Shown here one piece after another: positions 8,817-58,365 of a stretch of DNA of 60,603 nt. How positions within the stretch are numbered: the first letter of the stretch is position 1; each line of letters starts with the position of its first letter. Location of the stretch: positions 1 through 60,603 of the forward strand of contig JAUWZR010000001.1 of NCBI GenBank assembly GCA_030615235.1, read 5' to 3'. This DNA comes from Promethearchaeota archaeon. Lineage in GTDB: Archaea > Asgardarchaeota > Lokiarchaeia > Sigyniarchaeales > SOKP01. Both the position numbers and the translations under genes were made by a program. The notes under the pieces are model-generated. The model had not been told where the DNA came from. It worked only from the letters and a program-made list of their open reading frames with translations, and made no database searches.

Positions 8817-8959
8817 AAAAATCCTCTTTCCTCGCTAATTATTTCAAAAAATATTCTATTTCTAAAAAATTTTTCCATTTTTACTATTATTCTCTTAAAT
8901 TTTTACAAACGCTAACCGTGGTATCGATATTTTAAATGATGAAGACTTCAACATTTCGC

Positions 8960-9598: not shown

Positions 9599-9614
9599 GT
9601 TCGTCGATCTTTTC

Positions 9615-43356: not shown

Positions 43357-44571
43357 GTGTATTTTGAACTGGATATAATTGAAGAAGTAGATGATATAGA
43401 AGGTAATGAAGACCAAAAAGAAAGGTTAGATGATTTTTTTAGAACATTGAATAATTATACAAAATTTGCAAATAAATTAAAAAAAACTAAATTATCACCT
43501 AATTTAACAATGCTCTTATATGGCCCTCCAGGCACAGGAAAAACATCATTAACAAGAGCTTATTCTCTAAAATATAATATTCCCATCTGTGTTGTAGAAT
43601 CTAATAGATTAGTCTCTTCTTTATTAGGTGATACAATTAAAAATATTCGAAGAGTGATTGAAATTGCTGCTGATATATCAAAAAAGAATGGTAATTTCAT
43701 TCTATTTTTTGATGAAATTGATGCGATTGGTTCCGAGAGATCTAATGTACATGAAGTCGGGGAAATTAAACGAGCAGTAATAGCTTTTTTGCAAACTATT
43801 GATTTAATTAGTTATAAAAGCCTCCCTTTAGCTATAATTGGGGCCACTAACCATCAGCAGCAACTAGATTCGGCAATATGGCGACGATTTACATTTCATC
43901 TTCAATTCGATTTTCCTAATTATGAAATTAGATCAAAAATAATAAAATCTTTTATAAAAAGAATAGAAGATGCTGGGATAGCAGTTAACGATTCTATTTC
44001 TGATGAAATCGATTTAGAATATAATAAAATTCGATTAATTATAGAAGGAATAGAAAATTCTGATGATAAATTAAATAATAATCTTATCATGAAGGAAGTT
44101 AAAAATCAGGAAATAAACGGATTAATTACATTAACTGATGGATATTCTGGATCTGATATTGAGAGAGGTGTAAGAGTTGCATTATTCAAAGCAATTGGCT
44201 CGTTTCCTACTGTTGAGAATATAGATTATGATATTCTTTATAAATCACTAAAGTTAGTTGGAGGAACAGCAGTTCATGTAAATCGACAGGAAATTCTCAG
44301 CCTCTCGGGTCCAAGTTTTGAAAAATTAGATGAATTTGATGATAAACTTGCTTTATCCGATTTTAATGTAGAATTTAAAAATTTTGAAGAATTGCTAGCA
44401 CAGTCACACAAATTAACACCAATATTAAAAGAAATTAATAATATCTTGGAACATCGGGAGGGTTTAAAAAATGATTATCATCAACGAATAAGTGAAGAAT
44501 TCGTAAACTTTATTACGACATTAAAAGATTTAAGCAAAATATTAAAAGATAAAAATATTGTAAAAGATTAA
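43357..44571 (+). CDS. Island gene 5: classic-clade AAA ATPase (Vps4/katanin/CDC48-module-like) with a C-terminal helical extension
   Basis: Walker A LLYGPPGTGKTSL, Walker B ILFFDEIDAIG, and a second region of homology GATNHQQQLDSAIWRRF. The frame is open upstream to an ATT at 43291, so the start is uncertain. Confidence 0.85.
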   Translation: MYFELDIIEEVDDIEGNEDQKERLDDFFRTLNNYTKFANKLKKTKLSPNLTMLLYGPPGTGKTSLTRAYSLKYNIPICVVESNRLVSSLLGDTIKNIRRVIEIAADISKKNGNFILFFDEIDAIGSERSNVHEVGEIKRAVIAFLQTIDLISYKSLPLAIIGATNHQQQLDSAIWRRFTFHLQFDFPNYEIRSKIIKSFIKRIEDAGIAVNDSISDEIDLEYNKIRLIIEGIENSDDKLNNNLIMKEVKNQEINGLITLTDGYSGSDIERGVRVALFKAIGSFPTVENIDYDILYKSLKLVGGTAVHVNRQEILSLSGPSFEKLDEFDDKLALSDFNVEFKNFEELLAQSHKLTPILKEINNILEHREGLKNDYHQRISEEFVNFITTLKDLSKILKDKNIVKD

Positions 44572-45044: not shown

Positions 45045-45165
45045 AAAAATAATAGAAGAAATTGTTGATTATATTGAATCTTCAATTCGAGATGGTTTAG
45101 ATGAAGCAATTTTTATTAAAGAATTTCGGAATAAAATAGAAAAATATCTGAGTGAAAAGCAATAA
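45031..45165 (+). CDS. Possible 44-aa helical mini-protein translationally coupled to the Rad50-like gene
   Basis: The ATG at 45031 overlaps the end of the previous gene. Its stop forms TAATG with the 45165 start. Product is MSQNKKIIEEIVDYIESSIRDGLDEAIFIKEFRNKIEKYLSEKQ. Confidence 0.3.
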   Translation: MSQNKKIIEEIVDYIESSIRDGLDEAIFIKEFRNKIEKYLSEKQ

Positions 45166-47174
45166 TGAAAGCAGTCTTAAAATTAGTAAATATTGGGCAA
45201 AGAGAAGGGGAAGAAACTTGGGAATTTAACAGTGGAGTAGTAACAGAGATCAGAGGACGAACAGCTTCTGGTAAAAGCAGAATACTTAAATCTTGTGCAT
45301 TAGCTTTATCAATTCCAATAATCTCAGAAGAAATTAGAAATACTGCTATAAGTTTTGGAATTGCAAAAGCAGATAATGCAAAATTTTCACCCCTATTGAA
45401 TTCGAATAAAGAAAAAGCCATTATTGAACTTCATTATGATGAAGTTAAAAAACTTGTTGAAATAAATCGTGATGGTTCTGAAAAAATAAATATTCCTGGA
45501 AATCAAAAATTTATTTATTGTAGTATGCTAGTAGAAAATTCTAAAATACAAAATTATATCGATCATGGCCTATCTGATTTTTCATGGATAGTAACTGAAA
45601 TGTCCTTAGCAAAAGATTATGAATCAATAAAGGACATTGTTGGATCTTATACAGATTTAATTACAGCTAAAAAAGAAGAAATTCAGATAAAGGAGAATAA
45701 TAAAAAAAAGTTTGAGGGAGAATTTAAAAAAAAAAAAAGTGACCTAGCAGAAGTAATTGAGAAAATAAGACTACTCGAAGTTAATATTGAACAGGAGCTA
45801 GAAAAAATTGAATCGAATACAGAATTGAAAAATGAACGTAAGAAAATTATTGATGAACTCAAAGATAGACAAAAAATTATTATGGATACTGAAAAGAAAT
45901 TCCTTAGTCTAAAGAAAACTGTTACTGATCTAGATAATAAGATAAACGAAAAAAACACACAAATTGAAGATGAAACGGAAAATTTGGATAAATTGGAACA
46001 GAAAAAAAAGAAATATATGAAAATAGATGTGAGAAAATTAAATAACGAAATTAATCAGCTACATGAAGAAAATACGATGAATCTTGAAAAACAAAAGTTA
46101 TTATTACCTGAGATTAGTATATTAGAAAACAGCAAAAAGAAGTACGAAGGTATTTTAAGAGAACTAGATAAGACAAAAGAAAAAAAGGTTCTCTGTTGGG
46201 TTTGTGGGGGAAAAGAAATAGAAAGAAATGATATTGAAAACGATTTAAAAAGCACAAGAGATAAATTAACTCCTAAACGCGAAAAATATAGAGATTTAGA
46301 CTCTCAGATCGAAGAAAATAAGAATAATATAGATGATAAACAGAAAGATAAGGCAAAAAATGCTAAACTTCCTGATGTAAAGAAAAAAGTTGCATTGTCA
46401 AGAAATAAATTGATAAAACTAGCAGAAGAAAATAGCATTAATGTAGAACAAAAAAATAAGGAAGATATGGATATAAAAAGGTTTACAACAATTATCGAGA
46501 GTCGGAAGAAAACCATTAATCAATTAATAGAAAAAAGAAATGAAATCGAAAAACAAATAATTGATGATTCTCAAATGAACAAAACGAGGGAAGAAACCAA
46601 AACACAAAATACGAATAAGGGTGCTATTGAAAACCAAATCTCAAATTTAGAATTAGCCATAGATGATTGTAAAAGTATAGAAATTTTTAAAAAAGAATTT
46701 GATCTTTTAAAAGCAAAAAAAATTGTTCAAGAATTTGATGACATCTTTGATAATATTAATTTTCATCTAGAATTGAATATAAAAAAACAACGAGAAGGAG
46801 CTGCACATAAGTTCAATGAAAATATTGAAAAAATAATTGAAGAACTTAAATTGCCTAAATTTGAAAAAATTTATCTAGATATTGAAGATAATAATAAATT
46901 AAAAATTATAAGAAAAGGTAACCCTGACCCTCAAGCAATTAACTCTCTGAGCGGGGGTGAGAGAGTAATTGTTTCATCATTACTACAAATATCTGCTAAA
47001 GAAACTTACAATCCTGAGATACCCTTTATTGTTGGTGATGATATTATTATAAAAATGGATGAAGATCGTAGAGAAATTTTCTATAACTATTTAAAGAATA
47101 TTGCTAAAGATAATGATTGGTTTGTGATATTAACCAGAGTTACTGATGAAGATTTGGTAAAAGTAGAAATTTAA
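45165..47174 (+). CDS. Island gene 7: Rad50/SbcC/DndD-like SMC-family ATPase with a central CxxC hook
   Basis: N-terminal P-loop GRTASGKS, about 450 aa of Lys/Glu-rich coiled coil with CWVCGG at its centre (46194-46211), C-terminal signature LSGGERVIVSSLL, and Walker B-like PFIVGDD. Confidence 0.8.
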   Translation: MKAVLKLVNIGQREGEETWEFNSGVVTEIRGRTASGKSRILKSCALALSIPIISEEIRNTAISFGIAKADNAKFSPLLNSNKEKAIIELHYDEVKKLVEINRDGSEKINIPGNQKFIYCSMLVENSKIQNYIDHGLSDFSWIVTEMSLAKDYESIKDIVGSYTDLITAKKEEIQIKENNKKKFEGEFKKKKSDLAEVIEKIRLLEVNIEQELEKIESNTELKNERKKIIDELKDRQKIIMDTEKKFLSLKKTVTDLDNKINEKNTQIEDETENLDKLEQKKKKYMKIDVRKLNNEINQLHEENTMNLEKQKLLLPEISILENSKKKYEGILRELDKTKEKKVLCWVCGGKEIERNDIENDLKSTRDKLTPKREKYRDLDSQIEENKNNIDDKQKDKAKNAKLPDVKKKVALSRNKLIKLAEENSINVEQKNKEDMDIKRFTTIIESRKKTINQLIEKRNEIEKQIIDDSQMNKTREETKTQNTNKGAIENQISNLELAIDDCKSIEIFKKEFDLLKAKKIVQEFDDIFDNINFHLELNIKKQREGAAHKFNENIEKIIEELKLPKFEKIYLDIEDNNKLKIIRKGNPDPQAINSLSGGERVIVSSLLQISAKETYNPEIPFIVGDDIIIKMDEDRREIFYNYLKNIAKDNDWFVILTRVTDEDLVKVEI

Positions 47175-47205
47175 AAATTCATAGGTATTATCTTGAGGTA
47201 TTTAA

Positions 47206-47670
47206 ATGAATAGTGGAGATAGATATGTTTTAGTAATAGCTGAATTACAATATGATTCGAAAAAACCTAGATCAATAGTAAATGATATTAGAGAAGCTTT
47301 TATGGGAATTGTACCTCCTAAATATCCCGAAGGAAGAGGAAGTCCAAATATTTCGAAAAAAATTAGAGATATGTGTAAAATTGATAAAGATATTATTGAT
47401 CCTATTCATTTCTCTTTAATTAAAAAACCTGAAAAAATAGTCAATGCTGAAGGAAGGACCTACACAATAAGAAATACTGCCGTTGGTGCTATGATATTAT
47501 ATGAATATTTAGGTTTAGCTAAAGATTTGAGAAGATTCCTCAATATTTTTGATGAATACCTCAAAAGATTGATAGAAAGCAAAAAACCACAATTTTTCTC
47601 TTATATTACTAACTACGATATAATAATAGGTAATAAAATAAATGATATTTCAGTAACTGAAAACATATAA
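47206..47670 (+). CDS. Island gene 8: 154-aa protein, paralogue of 44592-45044
   Basis: Carries the same conserved blocks as gene 6. Confidence 0.6.
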   Translation: MNSGDRYVLVIAELQYDSKKPRSIVNDIREAFMGIVPPKYPEGRGSPNISKKIRDMCKIDKDIIDPIHFSLIKKPEKIVNAEGRTYTIRNTAVGAMILYEYLGLAKDLRRFLNIFDEYLKRLIESKKPQFFSYITNYDIIIGNKINDISVTENI

Positions 47671-47740
47671 AGGGATTTATCTAAAATTCTATTTAATTAT
47701 GTTATTTTTTATGTCTTAAACCCTAAATATTTAAAATATA

Positions 47741-48343
47741 ATGAAAATACCAGATTTTTCAGAAAAAGATTTTATTGGGATAAATGGAGTAGGAAGAGCA
47801 CAATTATATCATCCTCATTTTGATGTTTGGCAATCTTTTTTCAGAAATAGTTTTAGAATTGAGGGAAGCATAAGTAGTATAATTTTTTTGCCGTGTGCTG
47901 CTATTAAACCCTATTATAATTCTCCAATCCATCGAGTTTTCAATAAAACTATTGACAAATACAAAAATATTCAAAAATTTGTCATATCAAACGCGGGTTT
48001 AATACCCTATGAATTCTGTGATCGGTATCCATTCGAATCTTATGATTGGAATCCACTTTTTGAGACAGAAGAAATAAAAAATGAATATATGGAAGCTATA
48101 AGTACAAGAATATTTGACTTCTTTAAGAATAGAAAAATTAATATTAAAGTTAAATTCATTTCTTATTTAAGGAACGATTCAGAATCGCTGAACTCACTAA
48201 AAATTGCTTTCAAAAAATTAAAAATGAATTTGGAAATAATAAAAATAACTGGAAAACTTCATGAGACAGCAGATACTGACTTATTATTAACATTAGAAGA
48301 AAATTTAATACGATTAAATAAAAAGTTAAAATCATTTGAATAA
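47741..48343 (+). CDS. Island gene 9: DUF5591-like (archaeosine-synthase ArcS C-domain-like) protein
   Basis: IIFLPCAAIKPYYNSPIHRVF resembles the PC-x3-KPY-x-S-x-H block I associate with the ArcS/DUF5591 domain. It lies 8 nt upstream of a TGT-like gene. Motif-level call only. Confidence 0.45.
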   Translation: MKIPDFSEKDFIGINGVGRAQLYHPHFDVWQSFFRNSFRIEGSISSIIFLPCAAIKPYYNSPIHRVFNKTIDKYKNIQKFVISNAGLIPYEFCDRYPFESYDWNPLFETEEIKNEYMEAISTRIFDFFKNRKINIKVKFISYLRNDSESLNSLKIAFKKLKMNLEIIKITGKLHETADTDLLLTLEENLIRLNKKLKSFE

Positions 48344-48351
48344 GTATTTTT

Positions 48352-49404
48352 ATGGATTATTGGGCAGGAGAATTAGGAAATAATTTTATCGAAGGAATAC
48401 AACACGGCAATGTCATGGATAGTGTGTATAATTTTCTGAAATCAGAGGAGCCCAAAATAAAATATCCCTACGAAAATTTATTTTTAGACAATGGCGCCTT
48501 TTCAATATTTAAGAATAACTATAACAAGAAAAAGAATGAAGTACAAATAAATCTTAATAGCATCATCGATATCCAAGAAAAACTCAAACCAAAATTTACA
48601 ATTCCTTTCGATTATCCATTAGATCCCCAAATGAATATTAAAAATATGGAACAAAATTGGCAAAAAACAGTGAAAAATGTTGATTATTGGACTAGTTGTA
48701 CTAATCTTAATCTTGTTCCTGCGCTGCATGGATGGAACAAAACTTCTCTAAATAAAAATCTTCATTTATTACAAAAAAAAGATTTTGATTACATAGCTTT
48801 AGGAAGTGCCTTTATTCTAAAGGAGAAATTCAAAGGATTTTTTGGAGATCGCCAACCAAATAAAAACATTTATGAAGCATTTTTATACCTCAGTTCCCTA
48901 GGTAAAAATCTAGGTATTGATATTCATGTATTTGGACTTGGAGCTTCTCCATTGACTTATCATTTTGCTGCGTTCTGTGAAATCAAAAGTTCTGATTCTT
49001 CAGGATATAGGAGAAAAGCAGCATACGGAAAAATTATCTTACCTCAAACAGCAGAAAGATATGCCGGTAATGGAAGTGCTACTTTTGGATTAAAAACTAA
49101 AAATGGATTGACTTATAAGAAAATCTTTTCTAATGAAGAAAAGAAAAAATTAGCCGAGTGTGGGTGCCCTGAATGCCGAAAAATATCCAAACATGGATAC
49201 CGTCGATGGAAACATTTATGTTCCGATTGGAAAATTAGAGCAATTCATAATAAATGGGTAATGGAACAGGAAGAAAAGATTTCCCACGAGTTAATTCAAC
49301 AAGGTTGGGATTGTTATGAAGAATTTATTAATAAAATGATGGAGAAATCTCGCTTAAAATGGCTTTGGGCTTTTATAAGAAAAACAAAACAAAAATATTT
49401 TTAA
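48352..49404 (+). CDS. Island gene 10: small tRNA-guanine-transglycosylase-superfamily protein without a PUA domain (DpdA-like candidate)
   Basis: The TGT zinc site and following helix are CGCPEC-x21-AIHNKW (CxCxxC ... HN). FLDNGAFSIF resembles the catalytic DSGGFQ block. At 350 aa it lacks the N-terminal ArcTGT start motif and PUA. Confidence 0.65.
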   Translation: MDYWAGELGNNFIEGIQHGNVMDSVYNFLKSEEPKIKYPYENLFLDNGAFSIFKNNYNKKKNEVQINLNSIIDIQEKLKPKFTIPFDYPLDPQMNIKNMEQNWQKTVKNVDYWTSCTNLNLVPALHGWNKTSLNKNLHLLQKKDFDYIALGSAFILKEKFKGFFGDRQPNKNIYEAFLYLSSLGKNLGIDIHVFGLGASPLTYHFAAFCEIKSSDSSGYRRKAAYGKIILPQTAERYAGNGSATFGLKTKNGLTYKKIFSNEEKKKLAECGCPECRKISKHGYRRWKHLCSDWKIRAIHNKWVMEQEEKISHELIQQGWDCYEEFINKMMEKSRLKWLWAFIRKTKQKYF

Positions 49405-49539
49405 TATAATTATATTCTTGAACGATATTATTTCTTCCAGTCTCAGGATATTTCTTTTTGTAGTTTATTCTCAATATATTTAATTATGTTCTTTGGTATA
49501 ATTTTTCTTCAAACCATTAAAATAAATTTAAAAAATAAA

Positions 49540-51879
49540 TTAATTTATAAAAGGAAATTTAATTTCTACAGGGTCATGTTTTCCCATGCTCGTAATATAA
49601 GCATGTCCTTGTGGAAGATGTTTCAGTCGTTCTATATCTTGCTTATTATTAAAGTATTCCTTCAAGTAGTTGCTTCCACTTCCTTGTGTCTGAAGGAATA
49701 TTTTGGTATTACACAGATCAATAATTTCTTTTTTCACATCCATGATACTCTGGGTCGCAAATGCTACTCCATAGTCTCTTTTCCTACCACGATGTACGAT
49801 TTCGTCTAAGAATTTAACAATGCGCTTTAAGTATTCCGAATCTGATTGTGATTTCGATTTGGGAAGGAGACGTTGGATTTCATCCAAATGTAAGAAAACT
49901 TTAAGTTTTTCTTTTCCTTTCAAAGCACGTTTATGAAGAATAGCTAATAAATATAACGCTACAATTCGTTGATGTGAATCTCTCAAAATGTACGAATTAA
50001 TTACTGTTATATTACCAGGGATTAACATGGATTCAAAATCTATTGGTTCTACTTCGGGCAAATCGAAGATTCTTAGAGAGATGGAATTCAACGCCCTTCT
50101 TATTGCGGACTTAGTTCCAGATGTTGCGCTATATATCTCATTTTCCATATAATAGAAAATAAATTTCTTTAGTTCTGGAAGTGTAAACTCCTTTCCCTTA
50201 TTTTCTTCAATAATATCATAAATTATTGTTTGCAAAGTATCGTGAGATATTGGTGTCAATTCGTGTAAGAAATAGGGTAAATCAACAGGATCAATCGCTT
50301 TTAAGGTAAGGCAAAAACCTTTATCTGTATCTATATTAATGAACCTAAATTTATTGATGTTAAGAGCATTAATTCTATGTAGCTTCATTAATTTCTCTGA
50401 TTGCTTGGTAGAAGGAATATTTGCTAAATTACCATATTCTCCTTCATTATCAAGTATAATTTGTGCTGGAGAATCTTTCTCTTGAGCAATTAAAAGTGAG
50501 AGTAATTTCAATGCTGATGTTTTCCCAGAACCTTGTTGCCCACTCATGAACACACTTTGATATAAAGTTCTTATTTTAAGCAAATATGGAACTCCTGTAT
50601 TTAACCCTTGTATGCTTGCAATTTCTATTCCATTTTGAGGAATTTTTTTAAATTCACAGAACTCGTTTTGCGTTGGTATTTTGATTTTTCCGCCTATTAT
50701 CGTTTGTGGGTTCAGTGCCTGATATCCTTCAGGTGTAAATTGCCCAACGGGAATCAATGTAATTTTATAGTTATATTCTTTATGACTTGAAGTTTCTCCA
50801 GGAAAATAATCTTCAGAGCATTCTATTTTTTTAACAATGCACATTATTCTCACTCCATCCTCCTCTTTTTCAACAATCACACAATATCCATCTCTTACGA
50901 GGTGTGCTTTATTAGGATATAAATATCCTTTCATCTGGTTATCACCGCCCATTACAAGCTCAAGAGGTTTTCCCTTTACAGTGTTAATGCTTCCTAAACA
51001 ATAATCATCATCTTCAGATATCCCGTTAGAATTATATTGATTCCACGGATCACTGGGTGGTGTGGTTGGTGCAGATGTATTATGTAATTCACTTATTTTG
51101 GCATGGCTCTCTTTAACATCATTATGATCTTCATCATTTTCAGAGGTAAACTCAAAAGTAATACCGTTAAAACCTTCAAATGCTGTATTCATAGCAAATT
51201 TTACTGCAGTTTCCCTTAAATCATCCGTAAATTTATAAGAGACAACTTTATTTGGAAAATATACTAACTGAACGACTCCGCATTTCTGATGCCTCGCTTT
51301 TTCAAAAATAATTCCATATAGGCAAGTTTGCATAAATTCTCTATGATTTTTTAAATTTAAATTGCTCATTTCATCATTTTTGTTTAATTCATACGATTTA
51401 AATTCTCTTATTATAAATTTCTCTGAATCTAGCTCAACCAAACAATCAACTCGAGCATTAATTTTCAAGCCACCAATTTTTCCAATCTCTTCAACTTCAA
51501 AAGAAGCTTCTCCACCAAAGAATTCAATTTCAATCTTTTTTGGTATAACAATAGCATAATTATTTTTAGATTGCATTTTCGCAACTCTGCGTATATCTTG
51601 ATGTAAAGAATTTAATAACACTTTAGTGTCCTCATGATATATCTCATAATCAGGATTCTTTTTGATATCTGCCAAGATATCAATCTTATACTTTGTCAAA
51701 TTCTGACTGAAAACTCTATAATTCATTTTGTTTCTTTTATTCCCCCCTTTGAAAATTCTTTTATAATATGTTGTGGATGCTTGATGTAAAACTCTTCCAC
51801 GTATTCCCCCATGCTCATATATTACCTTACCATAGACATTATCTAATAAACCACTTACAGATTTTTTACATTGATTCAT
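49540..51879 (-). CDS. PD-(D/E)xK (Cas4/RecB-like) nuclease domain fused to a HerA/FtsK-type (DUF87) ATPase
   Basis: The N-terminal part has RVDCLVELDSEKFIIREFKSY (D ... ExK) and MQTCLY (QxxxY). The C-terminal part has Walker A GQQGSGKTS, Walker B VFLHLDEIQRLLP, and FATQSIMDVKKEIIDLCNTKIFLQT, typical of HerA-like ATPases. Confidence 0.75.
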   Translation of the reverse strand: MNQCKKSVSGLLDNVYGKVIYEHGGIRGRVLHQASTTYYKRIFKGGNKRNKMNYRVFSQNLTKYKIDILADIKKNPDYEIYHEDTKVLLNSLHQDIRRVAKMQSKNNYAIVIPKKIEIEFFGGEASFEVEEIGKIGGLKINARVDCLVELDSEKFIIREFKSYELNKNDEMSNLNLKNHREFMQTCLYGIIFEKARHQKCGVVQLVYFPNKVVSYKFTDDLRETAVKFAMNTAFEGFNGITFEFTSENDEDHNDVKESHAKISELHNTSAPTTPPSDPWNQYNSNGISEDDDYCLGSINTVKGKPLELVMGGDNQMKGYLYPNKAHLVRDGYCVIVEKEEDGVRIMCIVKKIECSEDYFPGETSSHKEYNYKITLIPVGQFTPEGYQALNPQTIIGGKIKIPTQNEFCEFKKIPQNGIEIASIQGLNTGVPYLLKIRTLYQSVFMSGQQGSGKTSALKLLSLLIAQEKDSPAQIILDNEGEYGNLANIPSTKQSEKLMKLHRINALNINKFRFINIDTDKGFCLTLKAIDPVDLPYFLHELTPISHDTLQTIIYDIIEENKGKEFTLPELKKFIFYYMENEIYSATSGTKSAIRRALNSISLRIFDLPEVEPIDFESMLIPGNITVINSYILRDSHQRIVALYLLAILHKRALKGKEKLKVFLHLDEIQRLLPKSKSQSDSEYLKRIVKFLDEIVHRGRKRDYGVAFATQSIMDVKKEIIDLCNTKIFLQTQGSGSNYLKEYFNNKQDIERLKHLPQGHAYITSMGKHDPVEIKFPFIN

Positions 51880-51885
51880 TTTTTA

Positions 51886-52236
51886 TCACATCTCATTTTG
51901 TTCAAACAATTCAAAATATCCTTCAGAGTTTCTGATTAAATCTAGCACATCTAAAGTTGTTTTATTAAGGAATAACGAATCATTTTTTTCTGCTAAAAAC
52001 TTCGAAAATATCTCTAATGAATTTTCAAATTGGGAATAATTTTCAGAAATAAGATTTCTTAATAAAATCTGGCGCTCTAATAGAGAATATTGAGTTAATA
52101 TTTCCTTTATAAAAACATCAACATCGTCGAAATAAATTACATTACCAAATTTTAAATTAGCTAAAATATTTTTAATTTTCTCATAAATATGGCAATTTTC
52201 TTCTTTAAATTTTGAGAAAAAAGTATTATTGTTCAA
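51886..52236 (-). CDS. Hypothetical 116-aa protein, co-operonic with the nuclease-HerA gene
   Basis: Lies 6 nt upstream of the 779-aa gene on the same strand. No recognised motif. Confidence 0.45.
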   Translation of the reverse strand: MNNNTFFSKFKEENCHIYEKIKNILANLKFGNVIYFDDVDVFIKEILTQYSLLERQILLRNLISENYSQFENSLEIFSKFLAEKNDSLFLNKTTLDVLDLIRNSEGYFELFEQNEM

Positions 52237-52397
52237 ATAACCACCTCAACTTATTTTTATCTAGCTTTTTTTCGTATATAAACTTAGCTAATATTATTAT
52301 TAAAGTTAATATTTATAAATCTTTCGATATTATTAATTAAAATAAGATTTATATATAAATTAAGTTATAAACTAGATAGTAAAGATAAGGTGAATTT

Positions 52398-53921
52398 ATG
52401 TCAGATTTAACAACCCAAAACAAAATTTTAACCGTTTTAAGTAAAGCGTATCTCCCGTTAACAGCTAGGGAAATTTCTCAAATTGCAGAACTAAACATCA
52501 ATACTACTAGAACTATTTTACCACAAATGGTTAATAGAGGAGAAATTGAGCCAATAAAAATGGGTCCTGGGACTAAAAACTTATATATGTATAAAAAAAT
52601 CGAGGATGAAGGAACTGTAGAAATCCTTGTTATAGGAAAATGGATGAAGAAGAATTTAGAAAGTTATGAAAAAAAAGAAATAGAGGAACCTATTGAAGAA
52701 CAATTAGAATTAAAAAATCATTTAAATTTCAATTTATTTCAGTGTGTTGGCCTCATAAATTTCTATGATCTCCGAAAAATTTGTGGAATTCATAGATATA
52801 CATCCCCAGATAAAATAAATGAAATAGGAATGGGTGTGCAAAGACAAAGGCATGACAAATGGGTCGAGGAATTGAAAGAGGGATTAAAATCTTCCAAAGC
52901 TGAAATGTGGTCTACGGCAATAATATATTTTGATAAAGAAAAAATAGAATACACTAAACTTCGGGATTATAATGGTCAAGAAATAGGAGTTATAATCATT
53001 AATTATGATGGTCATGTATATGATGCTGAAAAACCAGGTTGGATTTTAGACGGACAGCAGAGAATGTGGGCTTTAGAGAATATCGCAATTGCTTCAGAAG
53101 ATCCAGATTCTCTGAAATTGACAGGACCAGTAACTATTGCTATTGGGGAATTTTACTACAAAGATATAGGAACTAAGCTTAATTTTATCCGAAGAACTTT
53201 TTCACATGCAAATAAAACTCAAAATCTTCCTAAGAATTTCAGGAAGGATTTAATAGGCACATTAGATGATTACAGTCAAGAAACAATGACCAAGAAAGAT
53301 AAAAAAGACGCTTTAATATCCTCAATAATTAGGTACTTAAATACAGATTATGATAGTCCTTTTAAAGAAATAATTGATATGCAAAATCGAGGTTTACCAA
53401 GAATTCAAGGAGAATTGATATCATGGGGGGCTATGAACTATATAATCCAAGAAATTTTAGAATATGAAGCGTTTAATAAGGAAGATTTACCTATTCCTGA
53501 ATCAGATAATCGATATAAATTTAATTTAGAATTAATTAAAGATTACTTCAATGCGATAAAATATATTTATCCATCTGAATGGGGGCAAACAGTTCAAAAT
53601 TCAAGGCTTCGGAGTAGGCTAGTGCTTTCTAGCTTTTCTATGCTTATTGGAAAAATACTGCATATTTCAATTGCGTTATCATCTGATCGCGAAACAAGAT
53701 TTAAGGAGATTGTTAGAGAAAATCTAAAAATTTCAGAAGATGAAAGAGTAAGTTTTGATGTAAACAGCCCATTGATACTAAACTTAAAAAACAATCAAGC
53801 TGATATAAAAACTTTAACCGAAAATTTAATAAAGATTTATGCTCAAAATTCCCAATATAATCCTGAAGAATTGTTAATTGTAAAAATTTATGAAGAATGG
53901 AGAGAATTACTGGAATATTGA
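52398..53921 (+). CDS. ParB/DndB/DUF262-superfamily protein (DGQ[HQ]R motif) with an N-terminal winged helix
   Basis: GVQRQRHDKWVEEL followed by WILDGQQRMWAL matches the QR ... DGQ(H/Q)R arrangement of DndB/DpdB-like DGQHR and DUF262 domains. The N-terminus LPLTAREISQIAELNINTTRTIL is HTH-like. Confidence 0.65.
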   Translation: MSDLTTQNKILTVLSKAYLPLTAREISQIAELNINTTRTILPQMVNRGEIEPIKMGPGTKNLYMYKKIEDEGTVEILVIGKWMKKNLESYEKKEIEEPIEEQLELKNHLNFNLFQCVGLINFYDLRKICGIHRYTSPDKINEIGMGVQRQRHDKWVEELKEGLKSSKAEMWSTAIIYFDKEKIEYTKLRDYNGQEIGVIIINYDGHVYDAEKPGWILDGQQRMWALENIAIASEDPDSLKLTGPVTIAIGEFYYKDIGTKLNFIRRTFSHANKTQNLPKNFRKDLIGTLDDYSQETMTKKDKKDALISSIIRYLNTDYDSPFKEIIDMQNRGLPRIQGELISWGAMNYIIQEILEYEAFNKEDLPIPESDNRYKFNLELIKDYFNAIKYIYPSEWGQTVQNSRLRSRLVLSSFSMLIGKILHISIALSSDRETRFKEIVRENLKISEDERVSFDVNSPLILNLKNNQADIKTLTENLIKIYAQNSQYNPEELLIVKIYEEWRELLEY

Positions 53922-54005
53922 TATATCTTAATTCCAATTGCTAATAAAATTTATAAAAATTACTATATTACCTGGATTAATATATTCGAAATCCTTTTAA
54001 TATTC

Positions 54006-55379
54006 ATGAAAAAGGATTTTGAATTGAAAGAAAAGACAGCTATAAATTTTCTTAAAAAGTACAATAAAAATGCTTATGTCTGTTTTTCAGGGGGTAAAGA
54101 TAGTCTAGTCGCCCTTGATTTAGCCATTAAAGGCGGAATTGATAATGTTGTATTTTGCGATACTACTATGGAATTTCAAGAAACTCTTGATTACATTAGA
54201 AGAGTAGAAGAATTTTATGATATAAGGGTGGAATCAGTGACTGCCCCTGTGCCATTTTTTGAACTTGTATATAAAATTGGGGTCCCATCGAGAAGATTGA
54301 GATGGTGTTGCAAGGTTTATAAATTTTCTCCACTCGCGGTATTCGCAAGAGAGAACAAGGTTAAATCTTATATAACAGGCTTAAGAAGTGAAGAGAATGT
54401 TAGACGTAAGCATTATAGCAAAAATGATGAGAATCATTTAATAGATTCAAAACAAATAAATCCTATTCTTGATTGGTCAAGTCAAGATATTTGGGATTAT
54501 ATTATGCGAAATAATCTACCTGTTAATCCACTGTACAATTTAGGATTTAAAAGAATAGGGTGTTGGCCATGCCCATTTAAATCTAAGGTAGATTGGAGTT
54601 TGATTAAGAAGTTCTTCCCAGATAAATCAAAATTACTAGATAAAACCTTGAGATCTATCTTAAAGAATTGCGAAGGTGTGGGAATTAAGAATTTAGATGA
54701 TTTCATAAAAAATTTTAAATGGACTGCTTATAGTAGGCCGCAAAACTCTGAATTACAAGGGAAAATAGAATTTATTGATGGTACATCTTTAATTCATTTA
54801 GAAAATACGAGCGATCTCAAAAAAGTAGAAAAAATTATTCCAATATTATCAAAAGAATATGAGGTAATTAGAAATTCGATTATGATAAAAAGCAAACTCC
54901 GCAAGCAAAGTCTCAAAATCCTCGTAGAAAAAGCTCTAAATTGTGTAGGTTGTGGTACATGCGTTGCTTTTTGTAAGTCTTTAAGAATAGAAAGAAACCA
55001 TTTAGTTGTTGATAGTCAAAATTGTACTTCATGTTTAAGATGTATTAAAACTAGTACAATGAGGGGAGCTTGTATAATGAGAAATTTTTCTCCATATCGT
55101 ATTGAAATTGGTACTTGCCAAAATTTTTCAGTAGAAAATGAAATTCCTTCATTAAATAGTCGTGTTGGCTTGATTAGAACAAGAGCTAAACTGGAAGATA
55201 TAATAGAAAAATTAGAAAAACATGCTGAAATTAAAAAATTCACTCAATATGTCTCCATAAAAAACGGAAAATTGTCAGCAACAGCATATAAGTCAAGAGG
55301 GTATGTGGAAATTAAAATTTACCCTAACAATAATGACTTAGAAATTACAATGAATTATTTCAGAGGGATAATCACTTAA
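54006..55379 (+). CDS. PAPS-reductase-family PP-loop ATP pyrophosphatase (DndC-like) with a C-terminal 2x[4Fe-4S] ferredoxin-like domain
   Basis: PP-loop VCFSGGKDSLVALDL, RWCCKVYKFSPL and GCWPCP blocks of the PAPS reductase/DndC family. CVGCGTCVAFC and CTSCLRC Cys clusters follow. Confidence 0.75.
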   Translation: MKKDFELKEKTAINFLKKYNKNAYVCFSGGKDSLVALDLAIKGGIDNVVFCDTTMEFQETLDYIRRVEEFYDIRVESVTAPVPFFELVYKIGVPSRRLRWCCKVYKFSPLAVFARENKVKSYITGLRSEENVRRKHYSKNDENHLIDSKQINPILDWSSQDIWDYIMRNNLPVNPLYNLGFKRIGCWPCPFKSKVDWSLIKKFFPDKSKLLDKTLRSILKNCEGVGIKNLDDFIKNFKWTAYSRPQNSELQGKIEFIDGTSLIHLENTSDLKKVEKIIPILSKEYEVIRNSIMIKSKLRKQSLKILVEKALNCVGCGTCVAFCKSLRIERNHLVVDSQNCTSCLRCIKTSTMRGACIMRNFSPYRIEIGTCQNFSVENEIPSLNSRVGLIRTRAKLEDIIEKLEKHAEIKKFTQYVSIKNGKLSATAYKSRGYVEIKIYPNNNDLEITMNYFRGIIT

Positions 55380-55449: not shown

Positions 55450-56343
55450 ATGACAAAATATGATTTATTCAACTTGGAAAAAATCCAAGAATTAACTAGC
55501 CCGATTGAAGAATTTGAAGGAAAAATAGTCAATTTTGGGATTAACTTTGAAAGATTTCGCAAAACTAGAAATAAAACTCTCCATAAGATAAAAGATCAAT
55601 TATTTATAGAAGAAATTGAACAAATCTTTCTTGAATTTGACACACTCTATAAGCAATTATCTAAACAATCAATTAATATTATTTTAAAATTTCTCTTTTT
55701 TCAAGAAAAACTTACGAAAGAACATGCAATTTTATTCAAACAAAAATTAAAAGATTCTAATTTAAGATTAAACGAATACGGATTACATTTAATTGAAACT
55801 AAAAAAATCCGTAGAATTCATGATAACACCTTAGTGATCTTTGCCCCATCTTTAGATCTATGGTTAGAAGTATTAAACTCATTAAAGAGAAATTCTCTAT
55901 ATTTATCTTTTATAGAGAAGGCTAAGATTATTTTAAAAACTAAGGAATATATACCTATTGAAGAAATTTCTACTCAAAATGAACAAACAATAGAAAAAGA
56001 ATCTAAATCTGAACTTAATAAATATGAAGAATATCTTAAATATACGAATAAGGAATTTCAAAAAAGGAGACGGAGAGAAAAAAGAACTAATTTAGTAAAA
56101 CTTCAAGAAAAACCAGCTATCCAAATTGAGGTAACTAAGGAGGTAACAGAGAAAATTGAAGAATATAAATCTAAAATGAAAACTGACTTCAATAGGAAAT
56201 ATTTTATTCAAAAAGATGAAGAAAAAGATCCAGTATCGTTAATAAAAGATTTAAAAAAAAAAAAAAAGGAAGAATACAAAATACATTTAGAGAAAATACA
56301 GAAAAAGAAATCAGGTGAAAATTCAGATACTAGAACGAATTAA
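55450..56343 (+). CDS. Hypothetical protein with a Lys/Glu-rich C-terminal half
   Basis: 297-aa ORF that overlaps the next gene by 29 nt. Confidence 0.45.
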   Translation: MTKYDLFNLEKIQELTSPIEEFEGKIVNFGINFERFRKTRNKTLHKIKDQLFIEEIEQIFLEFDTLYKQLSKQSINIILKFLFFQEKLTKEHAILFKQKLKDSNLRLNEYGLHLIETKKIRRIHDNTLVIFAPSLDLWLEVLNSLKRNSLYLSFIEKAKIILKTKEYIPIEEISTQNEQTIEKESKSELNKYEEYLKYTNKEFQKRRRREKRTNLVKLQEKPAIQIEVTKEVTEKIEEYKSKMKTDFNRKYFIQKDEEKDPVSLIKDLKKKKKEEYKIHLEKIQKKKSGENSDTRTN

Positions 56344-57847
56344 TATAGCAGATAATGAAATTGATATAAAAAATCAATTTACACTTATACTAGGTAAATT
56401 TAAAAAAGAACAAATAAATCAGTTTCAAGAATTTAATACATATGATTTATTTGAGGATTTTAATGTTATATCTTTTGAGACAATTTTAACTATATTTAAA
56501 AATGAAATACATAATGTAAACTTTCTAAGATTTGTTGAAATTCTTGATCCTTTTCTTAACACTACCAAATTTTTTATTCAATTAATAGGAAAATACAGTG
56601 AATTAACTCAATTTTTTGATCAATCTTTACGACTTAGGATATTTGCAAGTGAAAATGAGAATTTAGAAAAACTCTTAGAAATTCGGAAGAAAATAGATGA
56701 AAAAAACACACCAAAAGTAAAAGAAATTTTAGATGAAATCAGAGATTTAAATAATTTGATTATCGAAGAAATAAAAACATTAAATTATTTAGAAGAGGAT
56801 TTTATTAACCAAAAAATGAAAATTGATCGATTTAACAAATCAATAAACAATCTTCAGATAAAATTAAAGAATTTAGACACACAAAAAAAAAAGGCGCTTA
56901 AAAAAATTAGTGTAATAACAGGAGAAAATGAAGATTCAAGAGATATGGATGAGGAATTAACAGATTCTCAAAGGATTTTAAAATTTCAACAACAAGTTAG
57001 AGATTTTAATTATGAAATGAAGAAAATTAATGAGAATATTCATAAAGAGAGTACCGAATTTCGAGAGTTTAAGCTCAATTTTTTGATAATCGAAGAAGAT
57101 TATAAACTTCTCAAAAGCACAATAAATGGTTATAATAACAAATTAAATGAACTTAAAAAAGAATTATCTAAAATTATTGATACAGAATTAGGTGATTTTG
57201 AAATGTCCGATCTCCTCAAATCACATAATCAAATTATTAAACATTTCGAAGAAAATGACCTTAAAATAAAAAATATTCAAAAACATAAATTTTTTGACAA
57301 AAACCAATCCGATGCTCTATCAACTATATATAAAGAATTAGTTAATATCAAGTCTAATCTAACTAAAAATAAAATTAATTTTACTAAAGATGATATAGAA
57401 AAATCTGTAGATTTTTATCAAAATATTGAATCTAAAATTATAATATTAGAAGAAATAATCAATAAATTTTTAATGCAAATCTATTTGAAATATTCCCTCG
57501 AAATTACAATAAATGATAATAAGAATTTATTTATTAAACAAAAATTCTTCCAAATAAGAAAAAAAACCACTCTAAACTTCAATGAATTGACAACTCCAGA
57601 AAAAATTTTTTTCTTAATTGTCTTAGATATTTCATTGAGAATTTTATTTAATAAAAAAATAATTTATTCGAATATGTTTTTACCAGTAATCTATAATAAA
57701 CAAGGTTCAATATTTCGAACTTTAAAAAAAATTATTCCAGTGTTCGAAAGGGAAACTGAACTTCAAGACATTAGTTTGATCTTTATTTTATCTAATATAG
57801 AAATGAAAGAAAGAATAACGAATTTAGATGTTATCAAAATCAAATAA
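56315..57847 (+). CDS. SMC/Rad50-like coiled-coil protein with degenerate ATPase motifs
   Basis: The N-terminus KIQILERINIADNEIDIKNQFTLILGKFKKEQ has the strand pattern of an SMC head, but GKFKKE replaces GxxGxGKS/T. A long coiled coil follows. The C-terminal LTTPEKIFFLIVLDISL sits in place of LSGGE. Confidence 0.45.
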   Translation: MKIQILERINIADNEIDIKNQFTLILGKFKKEQINQFQEFNTYDLFEDFNVISFETILTIFKNEIHNVNFLRFVEILDPFLNTTKFFIQLIGKYSELTQFFDQSLRLRIFASENENLEKLLEIRKKIDEKNTPKVKEILDEIRDLNNLIIEEIKTLNYLEEDFINQKMKIDRFNKSINNLQIKLKNLDTQKKKALKKISVITGENEDSRDMDEELTDSQRILKFQQQVRDFNYEMKKINENIHKESTEFREFKLNFLIIEEDYKLLKSTINGYNNKLNELKKELSKIIDTELGDFEMSDLLKSHNQIIKHFEENDLKIKNIQKHKFFDKNQSDALSTIYKELVNIKSNLTKNKINFTKDDIEKSVDFYQNIESKIIILEEIINKFLMQIYLKYSLEITINDNKNLFIKQKFFQIRKKTTLNFNELTTPEKIFFLIVLDISLRILFNKKIIYSNMFLPVIYNKQGSIFRTLKKIIPVFERETELQDISLIFILSNIEMKERITNLDVIKIK

Positions 57848-57882
57848 AGAAGTGAAGATATCTGAGTAAAAATCAAAAAGAA

Positions 57883-58365
57883 ATGATAAGAGAAATTGCA
57901 AAGCTAATTTTAACAAATAAAAAGAAAATGGTAAAAGAAGAAGATTTAATAAGACTCTATGATAAATCTACTTCGGATTTTGACGAAACTTTTAAAGATC
58001 TATATGAACAATTTAATAAACTAGGTTTTGAACTTATAAAGTCAGAATTTCAAGGGAATAATTATTATGTTTTAACATCAGAAGGTAAGGATGATAATAT
58101 AACTCCAAGCCAATATGGTAGTTTAGCACTTATTGCTGCATTATCTAAGGAAGTAAATGAGAACATAAAAATTGAGGATCTAAAAGAAATATTCAAAGAT
58201 CAATGGAATTTAGATATTAAATTTCTTATAGATAATGATTTTTTAAGGAAAATTGACGATTTGGGAATAGTTAAAATAACTCCAATCGGAAAAGCTATAT
58301 TAAAAGAAATTCTGCCTGATTTATCACTAGACACACTATTAGATATATTTGAAGTTGAAGAATAA
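57883..58365 (+). CDS. Hypothetical 160-aa protein, last gene of the island (possible winged-helix)
   Basis: Operonic with the preceding genes. It has a weak resemblance to small wHTH partners of SMC-like proteins, which is not enough for a call. Confidence 0.35.
   Translation: MIREIAKLILTNKKKMVKEEDLIRLYDKSTSDFDETFKDLYEQFNKLGFELIKSEFQGNNYYVLTSEGKDDNITPSQYGSLALIAALSKEVNENIKIEDLKEIFKDQWNLDIKFLIDNDFLRKIDDLGIVKITPIGKAILKEILPDLSLDTLLDIFEVEE

What the first reader, a model, noticed from the sequence alone, without database searches (positions are those of the whole stretch)
49540..52236. Single-polypeptide fusion of a Cas4/RecB-like nuclease and a HerA/FtsK-type ATPase, with a small upstream partner
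The N-terminal ~230 aa carries D...ExK (VDCLVE...REFKSY) and QxxxY (MQTCLY). The C-terminal half is a DUF87/HerA-type ATPase (GQQGSGKTS; VFLHLDEIQRL; FATQSIMDV...CNTKIFLQT). HerA normally works with a separate NurA nuclease. In bacterial defence, HerA pairs with Sir2 or DUF4297 nuclease effectors. A covalent nuclease-HerA fusion, transcribed convergently with the modification genes, is a plausible restriction or effector module for the island.
Basis: partly seen in the sequence, partly recalled or inferred. Interest (0 to 1): 0.6.

Follow-up and report, generated by a model that had tools for sequence, protein, structure and literature searches.

The report
Asgard nuclease-HerA motor with swappable partner
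A Lokiarchaeal gene fuses a Cas4/RecB-type DNA nuclease to a HerA ring ATPase, and its small upstream partner shares a 19-residue end-piece with unrelated partner proteins elsewhere, so this is probably the DNA-destroying arm of a rare Asgard DNA-modification defence cluster; fusions of this kind are known, but this family and its tail are not described in the papers I searched.

Summary
ORF 49540-51879 (-) encodes 779 aa in four parts: a Cas4/RecB-family PD-(D/E)xK nuclease (1-234), a disordered linker (235-291), a HAS-barrel, and a HerA ATPase. All catalytic residues are invariant across 26 homologs. ORF 51886-52236 (-) is a real, conserved 116-aa partner.

The family occurs only in Asgard archaea and is accessory (1 of 25 genomes of the genus). 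A census of 47 loci and a tree give three clades.
- Clade A (the window): always divergent from a DndB/DGQHR-like gene, with a BrxP-like PAPS reductase in every locus long enough to show it.
- Clade B: paired with an NYN RNase partner and a wHTH-TPR giant, never with modification genes.
- Clade C (27% identity): again inside DndB-like/PglZ-like/ASRP clusters.

The new point is that the window's partner is a chimera. Its N-domain matches clade C partners. Its C-terminal tail (TTLDVL..I..SEG..ELF) matches the NYN partners of clade B. The tail is probably a docking peptide.

A covalent nuclease-HerA fusion is not unprecedented, because DndH has one. I rate this a new variant of a known kind. All functions are inferred.

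The parts
49540..51879 (-). Nuclease-HerA fusion gene (779 aa, P0001)
   Evidence: ORF and translation. About 100 full-length homologs, all from Asgard MAGs or metagenomes. Single copy in its own genome.
51178..51879 (-). Residues 1-234: Cas4/RecB-family PD-(D/E)xK nuclease domain. It has invariant E117, D145, (E/D)159-x-K161 and Q184xxxY188, and no four-cysteine Fe-S signature.
   Evidence: Alignment. PF12705 in homologs. AF2 model plus Foldseek top hits to Cas4, ACE1, AdnAB and AddAB.
51007..51177 (-). Residues 235-291: acidic linker of variable length, predicted disordered; acts as a flexible tether
   Evidence: pLDDT below 50 over residues 235-291. This stretch is unconserved and gappy in the alignment.
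50590..51006 (-). Residues about 292-430: beta-rich HAS-barrel-like N-terminal domain of HerA
   Evidence: All-beta secondary structure in the full-length model. Foldseek alignments to whole HerA chains span 515-600 columns.
49540..50589 (-). Residues 431-779 plus stop codon: HerA/FtsK-type RecA-like ATPase. It has Walker A GQQGSGKT (447-454), Walker B LDE (665-667), the sensor ATQS and an arginine-finger block HRGRKR (696-701).
   Evidence: PF01935 above cut-off. PADLOC HerA and mad8 hits. Invariant motifs. Foldseek hits to HerA.
51886..52236 (-). Partner gene (116 aa, P0002), same operon, TTG start with GAGGTG 5 nt upstream
   Evidence: Twenty homolog clusters. Found immediately upstream of the fusion in 10 of 10 clade A loci.
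51973..52236 (-). Partner N-domain (residues 1 to about 88, here called 'P2N'), fold unknown. It is homologous to the partners of the 27%-identical clade C fusions.
   Evidence: BLASTP against the L029 partner: 36% identity over residues 6-78, E 5e-10. HMM hits in L099 and L103. No Pfam family matched.
51904..51960 (-). Partner C-terminal tail TTLDVLDLIRNSEGYFELF (residues 93-111). It is shared with the NYN-domain partners of clade B and is a probable docking peptide for the fusion protein.
   Evidence: hhalign aligns only this tail between the two partner families (probability 82%, E 1e-5). The motif occurs only in partner proteins among 360 ORFs. It is present in nearly all of the 36 partners listed. 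Identity by codon position is 0.65/0.86/0.47, and invariant residues use 3-5 synonymous codons, so selection acts on the protein.
52237..52397 (.). 161-nt AT-rich divergent intergenic region between the partner-fusion operon and the DndB-like gene, with a TATA-like TTTATATA about 35 nt upstream of the TTG start
   Evidence: Sequence. The same divergent layout occurs in 14 of 15 loci that hold both genes.
52398..55379 (+). Context: DndB/DpdB-like DGQHR protein (52398-53921) and BrxP-like PAPS reductase with a ferredoxin domain (54006-55379). These are the genes that consistently accompany clade A and clade C fusions.
45165..49404 (+). Context: ASRP/SMC-like ATPase (45165-47174), a 154-aa protein, a DUF5591 gene and a TGT-like gene (47741-49404), convergent with the fusion. 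The TGT pair is dispensable because it is absent in L024.

Best explanation
This is a two-gene accessory module of Asgard archaea. The large protein is most likely a hexameric HerA-type dsDNA translocase. Each subunit carries, on a roughly 55-residue flexible tether at its N-terminus, a Cas4/RecB-family PD-(D/E)xK nuclease. That N-terminal side is the HAS-barrel face, where NurA, SIR2 and DUF4297 sit in solved HerA complexes. ATP-driven threading of DNA would feed it to the tethered nucleases, giving processive destruction.

The small upstream protein is probably an adaptor. Its C-terminal 19-residue tail would dock on the fusion protein. Its N-domain would set what the motor is coupled to. 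In most relatives that N-domain is an NYN RNase, with a wHTH-TPR giant encoded divergently. In the window's clade it is a different domain of about 88 aa, found only beside DndB-like clusters.

In this window the module would be the restriction or effector arm of the cluster made of the DndB-like DGQHR protein, the BrxP-like PAPS reductase and the ASRP ATPase (plus, here, the TGT/DUF5591 pair). That cluster presumably marks self DNA.

Shown here: domain architecture, conservation of catalytic residues, patchy distribution, the context census, the phylogeny, and the shared tail under protein-level selection. Inferred: hexamer formation, DNA degradation, tail docking, and coupling to DNA modification.
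For: Architecture and motifs.

Accessory status: found in 1 of 41 related genomes and only 8 loci, all Asgard, among the 185,579 species genomes held in the GTDB-232 collection. The genome has a separate 505-aa HerA.

Context census of 47 loci that include the gene's 5' end:
- Clade A (84-100% identity): 10 of 10 have a P2N-type partner and a DndB-like neighbour.
- Clade B (42-68%): 21 of 32 have an NYN partner directly upstream, 22 of 32 have a wHTH-TPR neighbour, and 0 of 32 have a DndB-like gene.
- Clade C (26-27%): 5 of 5 sit in clusters with DndB-like and ASRP genes, with a PglZ-like gene in 4 and a PAPS reductase in the 2 longest; the others are cut by contig ends.

Tree: clade C is sister to A+B, and clade A is nested within NYN/TPR lineages (support 99/94 and 100/99). 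The association with the DndB-like cluster therefore arose at least twice.

Partner chimerism: the N-domain is homologous to clade C partners, while the tail is shared with clade B NYN partners and is under protein-level selection.

Precedents in the literature: REase fused to HerA/FtsK in DndH and the 'HerA/FtsK capture' systems (PMC10853773); the BREX-related capture system with HerA, PglZ and TGT (PMC12839542); DUF4297-HerA as an ATPase-nuclease defence complex (PMC11291478).
Against: There are no experimental data of any kind, and all sequences come from MAGs or metagenomes.

Clade A loci are close relatives with conserved flanking synteny (cobW, Lsm_C). Their 10 of 10 linkage therefore counts as one event, so there are only two independent associations (clades A and C).

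Clade B shows that the motor works without any modification genes, so co-location in a defence island could be incidental.

One DndB-like cluster (L028) lacks the module and has SNF2 + NOV_C instead.

The docking role of the tail rests on conservation alone. The N-terminal model is only moderately confident (pLDDT 72.7, TM 0.3-0.46). The fold of the P2N domain is unknown. No modification chemistry has been shown.
Confidence: 0.6

Rival explanations
1. The module is an autonomous two-gene defence system, analogous to DUF4297-HerA or SIR2-HerA. It merely sits in a defence island, and the DndB-like, PAPS-reductase and TGT genes are unrelated neighbours.
For: Clade B has 32 loci with no modification genes. 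The module is transcribed opposite to all other island genes. Island content varies even between close relatives: four extra genes in L001, and the TGT pair missing in L024.
Against: Two fusion clades at 27% identity both lie directly divergent from a DndB-like gene, in 14 of 15 loci. The P2N partner domain is found only in DndB contexts (13 of 13) and the NYN partner never is. Clade A is nested in clade B, which implies a specific re-capture together with a partner-domain swap.
Confidence: 0.25
2. It is a DNA-repair end-resection machine: a HerA-NurA analogue with the nuclease fused, working with the neighbouring Rad50-like ASRP ATPase.
For: The HerA fold is closest to the HerA-NurA and defence HerAs. 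A zinc-hook SMC/Rad50-like ASRP gene lies 2.4 kb away, and ASRP genes accompany clade C as well.
Against: The gene is present in 1 of 25 genomes of the genus and absent from 16 more of the order. No NurA or Mre11 lies nearby. A separate HerA exists in the genome. The neighbours are defence-type (IetA-like, DpdB-like, BrxP-like). Clade B has no ASRP.
Confidence: 0.07
3. It is a mobile-element function: a DNA-pumping ATPase with a nuclease, used for packaging, conjugation or plasmid processing by an integrated Asgard element.
For: FtsK/HerA ATPases package the DNA of Asgard skuldviruses and other varidnaviruses (10.1101/2021.07.29.453957). There are weak VirB4/TrwB-type P-loop hits. The distribution is patchy.
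Against: No capsid, integrase or replication genes lie in any of the contexts read. The nearest tRNA genes in the window are about 35 kb away. Flanking host synteny is conserved in clade A. The best structural matches are HerA proper, with a HAS-barrel, not packaging ATPases.
Confidence: 0.05

Closest known systems
DndH of the DndFGH restriction system and other 'HerA/FtsK capture' systems (PMC10853773)
   Same: A restriction-endonuclease-fold nuclease lies N-terminal to a HerA/FtsK ATPase in one polypeptide. It is genomically linked to clusters containing DndB-type and DndC-type (PAPS reductase) genes. ATPases have been repeatedly 'captured' into such systems.
   Different: DndH is about 1700 aa with eight domains (inactive SNF2, TRDs, inactive methylase, and others) and works with DndF and DndG. 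The protein here is 779 aa with a Cas4/RecB-type nuclease and a HAS-barrel HerA. No DptH/DndH model hit it in PADLOC. It has a small tail-bearing partner instead of DndF/G.
DUF4297-HerA and SIR2-HerA (Nezha) anti-phage complexes (PMC11291478, 10.1101/2024.10.24.620088; PDB 8xav, 8zit, 8sub)
   Same: These are among the best structural matches to the C-terminal 490 residues. They are accessory ATPase-effector pairs in which a PD-(D/E)xK (Cap4-like DUF4297) or SIR2 effector sits on the HAS-barrel face of a HerA hexamer.
   Different: There the effector is a separate protein, whereas here it is fused in cis by a flexible linker. The nuclease here is Cas4/RecB-type, not Cap4-type. Those systems are bacterial and this one is Asgard. 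This one has an additional tail-docked partner.
HerA-NurA end-resection complex of archaea (PMC12977600; PDB 4d2i, 9x1m)
   Same: HerA fold with HAS-barrel. A translocase feeds DNA to an associated nuclease.
   Different: There is no NurA, Mre11 or Rad50 operon here. The gene is accessory rather than core. The nuclease has a different fold and is fused.
BREX-related capture (BRC) system (PMC12839542)
   Same: It combines a HerA/FtsK translocase with PglZ and, in some loci, a TGT-type DNA-modification enzyme, and it includes archaeal examples. Clade C loci here carry a PglZ-like gene, and the window carries a TGT-like gene.
   Different: The BRC core components DUF6079 (BrxC-like), STAND NTPase, DUF4007 and GNAT were not seen here. 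Instead there are a DGQHR/DndB-like protein, a BrxP-like PAPS reductase and an ASRP SMC-like ATPase. As far as I read, the paper does not describe the BRC HerA as carrying a fused Cas4-like nuclease.
Cas4 / ACE1 / AddB-AdnB RecB-family nucleases (PDB 4ic1, 9iac, 8d3l, 6ppr)
   Same: Top fold matches for residues 1-234. Same motif order: E, D, ExK, QxxxY.
   Different: There is no four-cysteine Fe-S cluster signature. It is not associated with cas1/cas2. It is fused to HerA.

Membership tests
HerA (PF01935/DUF87, HAS-barrel + RecA-like ATPase) | Sequence match to the HerA central domain above the curated threshold | tested here: met
   PF01935 scores 38 bits, E 2e-9, above cut-off on 49942-50601. 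PADLOC HerA hit at 4.5e-17. A plain hmmscan of the protein did not list PF01935.
HerA (PF01935/DUF87, HAS-barrel + RecA-like ATPase) | Walker A, Walker B, arginine finger and sensor conserved | tested here: met
   G447-T454, D666/E667, R697/R699/K700/R701 and T709/Q710 are invariant or nearly invariant in 26 sequences.
HerA (PF01935/DUF87, HAS-barrel + RecA-like ATPase) | Fold: N-terminal beta-barrel followed by the ATPase core, matching solved HerA structures | tested here: met
   Foldseek E about 1e-20 and TMt 0.54-0.62 to 8xav, 9x1m, 4d2i and 8wld.
HerA (PF01935/DUF87, HAS-barrel + RecA-like ATPase) | Hexameric ring that translocates dsDNA | not testable with these tools
   Only a monomer could be predicted, and there is no biochemistry.
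Cas4 sensu stricto (PF01930) | RecB-type motifs D, ExK and QxxxY in a PD-(D/E)xK fold | tested here: met
   D145, E159-x-K161 and Q184xxxY188 are conserved. Fold matches to Cas4, ACE1 and AddAB. PF12705 in homologs. Cas4 PADLOC models hit the clade C homolog at about 1e-4.
Cas4 sensu stricto (PF01930) | Four conserved cysteines coordinating an Fe-S cluster | tested here: not met
   Only C200 is invariant in the nuclease domain. C147 and C186 vary, and no C...CxxC...C pattern is present.
Cas4 sensu stricto (PF01930) | Association with cas1/cas2 adaptation genes | tested here: not met
   No cas genes appear in any of the contexts read.
HerA-NurA-Mre11-Rad50 repair operon | Adjacent nurA, mre11 and rad50, with near-universal presence in the lineage | tested here: not met
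   The neighbours are DndB-like, TGT-like and the P2N partner. The gene is present in 1 of 41 related genomes.
DUF4297-HerA / SIR2-HerA (Nezha) | A separate DUF4297 or SIR2 effector gene next to herA | tested here: not met
   The upstream gene has no Pfam or PADLOC family. The nuclease is fused and is Cas4/RecB-like.
DndFGH (DndH/DptH) | DndH of about 1700 aa with inactive SNF2, TRDs, inactive methylase, REase and HerA/FtsK, plus DndF and DndG | tested here: not met
   The protein is 779 aa. No DptH/DndH, DndF or DndG hits in PADLOC. Only the order REase then HerA is shared (PMC10853773).
BREX-related capture (BRC) system | PglZ + DUF6079 (BrxC-like) + STAND NTPase + DUF4007 + HerA/FtsK, with or without GNAT and TGT | tested here: not met
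   The window has HerA and a TGT-like gene but no PglZ-like, DUF6079, STAND or DUF4007. Clade C loci have a PglZ-like gene and ASRP instead of DUF6079.

The most novel reading that the evidence does not exclude
The 19-residue C-terminal tail, (S/T)T(L/I)(D/E)(I/V)L..I..(S/T).G.(F/L).L(F/Y), is a portable docking peptide that plugs interchangeable partner domains into a nuclease-HerA motor. Those partners include an NYN RNase, the P2N adaptor and others. The tail tracks the motor clade, while the N-domain tracks the genomic system. Using such adaptors, an undescribed Asgard DNA-modification system (DGQHR/DndB-like + BrxP-like PAPS reductase + ASRP, with or without PglZ and TGT) has twice independently recruited this motor as its restriction arm. 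This would be a minimal, modular counterpart of DndH.
Probability: 0.4. Interest if true: 0.7.

Novelty: new variant of a known kind. Interest (0 to 1): 0.55.

Why it matters
HerA-based defence complexes (SIR2-HerA, DUF4297-HerA, DndH) are a current focus, but so far they are bacterial and mostly have effectors in trans. This family gives three things. First, it is a compact cis-fused version in Asgard archaea, the closest prokaryotic relatives of eukaryotes. Second, it has a natural 'plug-and-socket' design: a short conserved tail on interchangeable partners, which can be tested directly by pull-down or structure prediction. Third, it provides comparative evidence that a rare, uncharacterised Asgard DNA-modification cluster uses this motor as its nuclease arm. 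If the tail does dock, it would show how one translocase-nuclease is rewired between an RNase co-effector and a modification-sensing adaptor. It would also identify the restriction component needed to reconstitute the DndB-like system.

Tried and rejected
- Sequence searches of the protein and of the N-terminal profile against PDB gave nothing useful.
- Direct Pfam and NCBIfam scans of the fusion gave only weak P-loop or VirB4-type hits.
- Pfam, NCBIfam and PADLOC gave no family for the partner or for the clade C partners.
- I considered that the 116-aa partner might be a truncated NYN. I rejected this because hhalign aligns only the tail.
- I considered that tail conservation might reflect an RNA or RBS constraint on the downstream start. 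I rejected this because third codon positions are the most variable and invariant residues use several synonymous codons.
- I considered the antisense ORF 49486-49809 to be a shadow of the fusion gene.
- The housekeeping-HerA and mobile-element readings were rejected on distribution and context.
- Iyer et al. 2004 (PMC521647) could not be read.
- The mention of HerA in the Asgard virus preprint concerns packaging ATPases only.
Full report
**Observation**

The window has about 30% G+C and comes from a Lokiarchaeal (Promethearchaeota) MAG of 2.57 Mb in 339 contigs. ORF 49540-51879 (-) encodes 779 aa. ORF 51886-52236 (-) encodes 116 aa from a TTG start. That start lies 5 nt after GAGGTG, and the ORF ends 6 nt before the large gene's ATG.

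**Anatomy of the large protein**

I aligned 26 homologs spanning 41-89% identity. The following are invariant: E117, D145, K161 (preceded by E/D159), Q184 and Y188 in the N-terminal third; the Walker A (G447-x-Q-G-x-G-K-T454); the Walker B (D666-E667); and an HRGRKRxYG block (696-704) in the C-terminal half.

- Direct hmmscan against Pfam was uninformative.
- PF01935 (HerA central domain) scores above its cut-off in the six-frame genome search.
- PADLOC HerA models hit at 4.5e-17.
- Homologs carry precomputed PF12705 (PDDEXK_1) plus PF01935.
- An AF2 model of residues 1-245 (pLDDT 72.7) has as its best PDB matches Cas4 SSO0001, the Argonaute-associated Cas4-family protein ACE1, AdnAB, Cas4 in Cas4-Cas1-Cas2, and AddAB. 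The probability is about 1.0 but the TM-scores are modest, 0.3-0.46.
- The full-length model (pLDDT 80.4) shows a disordered linker at 235-291, a beta-rich domain at about 292-430, and an ATPase core.
- The full-length model matches HerA from DUF4297-HerA, HerA-NurA and SIR2-HerA complexes at E about 1e-20 and TMt 0.54-0.62.

Only one cysteine (C200) is invariant in the nuclease domain. The Fe-S signature of true Cas4 is therefore missing. The architecture is RecB/Cas4-like nuclease, flexible tether, HAS-barrel, then HerA ATPase. The nuclease sits on the side of the ring where NurA, SIR2 and DUF4297 bind in solved complexes. That last point rests on established knowledge of those structures, not on a test made here.

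**Distribution**

- The gene is single-copy in its genome.
- It is absent from the other 24 species genomes of the genus and from 16 more of the order.
- A scan of the species genomes held in the GTDB-232 collection found only 8 loci, all Asgard.
- In a library of 1.84 billion representatives, only 203 clusters match at E up to 0.001. A handful of more distant proteins (P0107, P0126, P0141, P0146) show the same PDDEXK/Cas4 + DUF87 architecture.
- The genome also encodes a separate 505-aa HerA elsewhere.

The gene is therefore accessory, not a housekeeping HerA.

**Context census**

I combined loci from the look-up of encoding contigs, the genome scan and a metagenome scan. I classified neighbours with HMMs built here. 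Among the 47 loci that include the gene's 5' end:

| Clade | Identity to the window protein | Loci | Upstream partner | Other neighbours |
|---|---|---|---|---|
| A | 84-100% | 10 | P0002-type in 10/10 | DndB/DGQHR-like gene divergent in 10/10; PAPS reductase whenever the contig is long enough |
| B | 42-68% | 32 | About 190-aa NYN RNase (PF11977 in 7/7 scanned) directly upstream in 21 | Divergent wHTH-TPR protein of 950-1400 aa in 22; DndB-like gene in none |
| C | 26-27%; PDDEXK_1/Cas4 + HerA by Pfam and PADLOC | 5 | P0002-type in 3 | 5/5 in clusters with DndB-like and ASRP genes; PglZ-like in 4; PAPS reductase in the 2 longest |

In 14 of the 15 loci that hold both genes, the partner-fusion operon is divergent from the DndB-like gene across about 150-235 nt. 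One DndB-like cluster (L028) lacks the module and has SNF2 + NOV_C instead.

**Phylogeny**

I built an IQ-TREE tree of 40 full-length fusions with four more distant HerA proteins as outgroup.

- Clade C is sister to A+B.
- Clade A is nested among NYN/TPR-associated lineages: L017 and L018 branch first, and clade A is sister to the 61-68% group. Support values are 99/94 and 100/99.

The most parsimonious reading is that the DndB-like cluster acquired a nuclease-HerA module at least twice. One caveat applies. Within clade A the loci share flanking synteny (cobW, Lsm_C), so the 10 of 10 linkage counts as a single event.

**The partner**

P0002 is a real gene with 20 homolog clusters. It has no BLAST similarity to the NYN partners. 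Even so, hhalign aligns its last 23 residues to their last 23 (probability 82%, E 1e-5).

- The motif (S/T)T(L/I)(D/E)(I/V)L..I..(S/T).G.(F/L).L(F/Y) lies at or near the C-terminus of nearly all clade A and clade B partners, and of no other ORF in the first 360 examined.
- Across 26 distinct tail sequences, identity by codon position is 0.65/0.86/0.47. The invariant T, L and G use 3-5 synonymous codons. Selection therefore acts on the peptide, not on an RNA signal.
- The N-domain of P0002 (residues 6-78) is 36% identical (E 5e-10) to the partner of the clade C fusion in L029.
- Clade C partners end in a diverged version of the tail, WLDIL.NS....K.F.IY.

The window's partner is thus a chimera. 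Its N-domain follows the genomic system (the DndB-like cluster). Its tail follows the motor clade (A+B). I infer that the tail is a docking peptide for the fusion protein and that the N-domain is an exchangeable adaptor or co-effector.

**Mechanism proposed**

Every step here is inferred. The fusion forms a HerA-type hexamer, and ATP hydrolysis threads dsDNA through the ring. The six tethered RecB-like nucleases degrade the DNA at the HAS-barrel face. The partner docks through its tail. In clade B this adds an NYN nuclease under a wHTH-TPR sensor or regulator. In clades A and C the P2N domain couples the motor to the DndB-like/PAPS-reductase/ASRP machinery, which presumably marks self DNA. The shared divergent promoter with the DndB-like gene suggests co-regulation; DndB is a regulator in dnd systems (PMC10853773).

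**Comparison with known systems**

- Covalent REase-HerA/FtsK fusions are already known in DndH, and 'HerA/FtsK capture' into anti-invader systems has been described (PMC10853773).
- A BREX-related capture system combines HerA, PglZ and TGT (PMC12839542).
- DUF4297-HerA and SIR2-HerA are characterised ATPase-effector defence complexes (PMC11291478, 10.1101/2024.10.24.620088).

The present family is not a member of any of these (see the membership tests). It works like them, but it differs in four ways: its Cas4/RecB-type nuclease is fused in cis to a HAS-barrel HerA, it is restricted to Asgard archaea, it has a tail-bearing exchangeable partner, and its companion cluster is different. I found no description of this family or of the tail in the papers I searched.

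**Earlier notes of this scan**

Earlier notes had listed 'nuclease-HerA' as part of the Asgard cluster. I tested and extended that claim. They also described the TGT pair and the ASRP block. Another note reports a Cas4-HerA fusion in a different Asgard operon; I did not test it.

**Verdict**

I rate it a new variant of a known kind, with interest 0.55.

Noticed in passing
L017:4090-7242 (-), L018:3072-7205 (-), L019:3990-7199 (-), L021:2613-5468 (-), L025:6290-9241 (-), L026:6684-9860 (-): A large protein of 950-1400 aa has an N-terminal wHTH (MarR/PadR-like), an unannotated stretch of about 500 aa, and C-terminal TPR repeats. It is encoded divergently from the NYN-fusion operon in 22 of 32 clade B loci. 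It is probably the sensor or regulator of that three-gene system. It has no PADLOC match.
   Followed up: partly
L028:6244-19735: This DndB-like/ASRP/PglZ-like/PAPS-reductase cluster has no nuclease-HerA module. It is followed instead by an SNF2 helicase, a NOV_C-domain protein and an N6/N4 methyltransferase, which may be an alternative effector arm.
   Followed up: no
L001:9381-12164 versus window 49405-49539; L024:12391-14382: Island content varies among close relatives. Loki_b32 has four extra genes between the fusion and the TGT gene: a 251-aa SMC-like fragment, an Smr-domain protein, an Elf1-type zinc-ribbon protein and a 69-aa ORF. L024 lacks the TGT and DUF5591 genes altogether.
   Followed up: partly
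window 49486-49809 (+): This 107-aa ORF is antisense to the 3' end of the fusion gene. Its only 'homologs' are the same antisense stretch in other loci, so it is most likely a shadow ORF.
   Followed up: partly
L003:4825-9444; L019:919-2892; L021:640-2586; L002:33-767 and 8813-9994: Several clade B loci also carry a second, unrelated DUF87 ATPase of about 650 aa and a wHTH protein of about 390 aa upstream of the NYN gene. In L002 and L051 the wHTH protein takes the NYN position. L003 also has a GIY-YIG/NUMOD3 homing-endonuclease-like gene.
   Followed up: no
L014 and L019 (both from Promethearchaeota isolate H3B.172): One MAG carries two paralogous NYN + nuclease-HerA modules, at 67% and 42% identity to the window protein.
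   Followed up: no
G000 contig C305 (L110:6755-8272): The genome's other clear HerA (505 aa, PF01935 E 5e-32) is flanked by an FGGY sugar kinase, a 201-aa unknown and a CDC48 ATPase. No Mre11, Rad50 or NurA was among the five neighbouring ORFs scanned.
   Followed up: partly
L098:6282-6911 (+): In one clade C locus the partner is a 209-aa protein of a third, unannotated type. It carries the clade C tail (TWLDILYNSDNAGKSFKIY), and the module lies downstream of the PglZ-like gene rather than divergent from the DndB-like gene.
   Followed up: partly
window 43357-44571 and 55450-58365: An IetA-like AAA ATPase (PADLOC 3e-60) lies upstream of the ASRP block. Downstream of the PAPS reductase are three genes without annotation (297, 510 and 160 aa; the last has a faint MksE hit). 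They take the place that the PglZ-like gene holds in clade C clusters.
   Followed up: no
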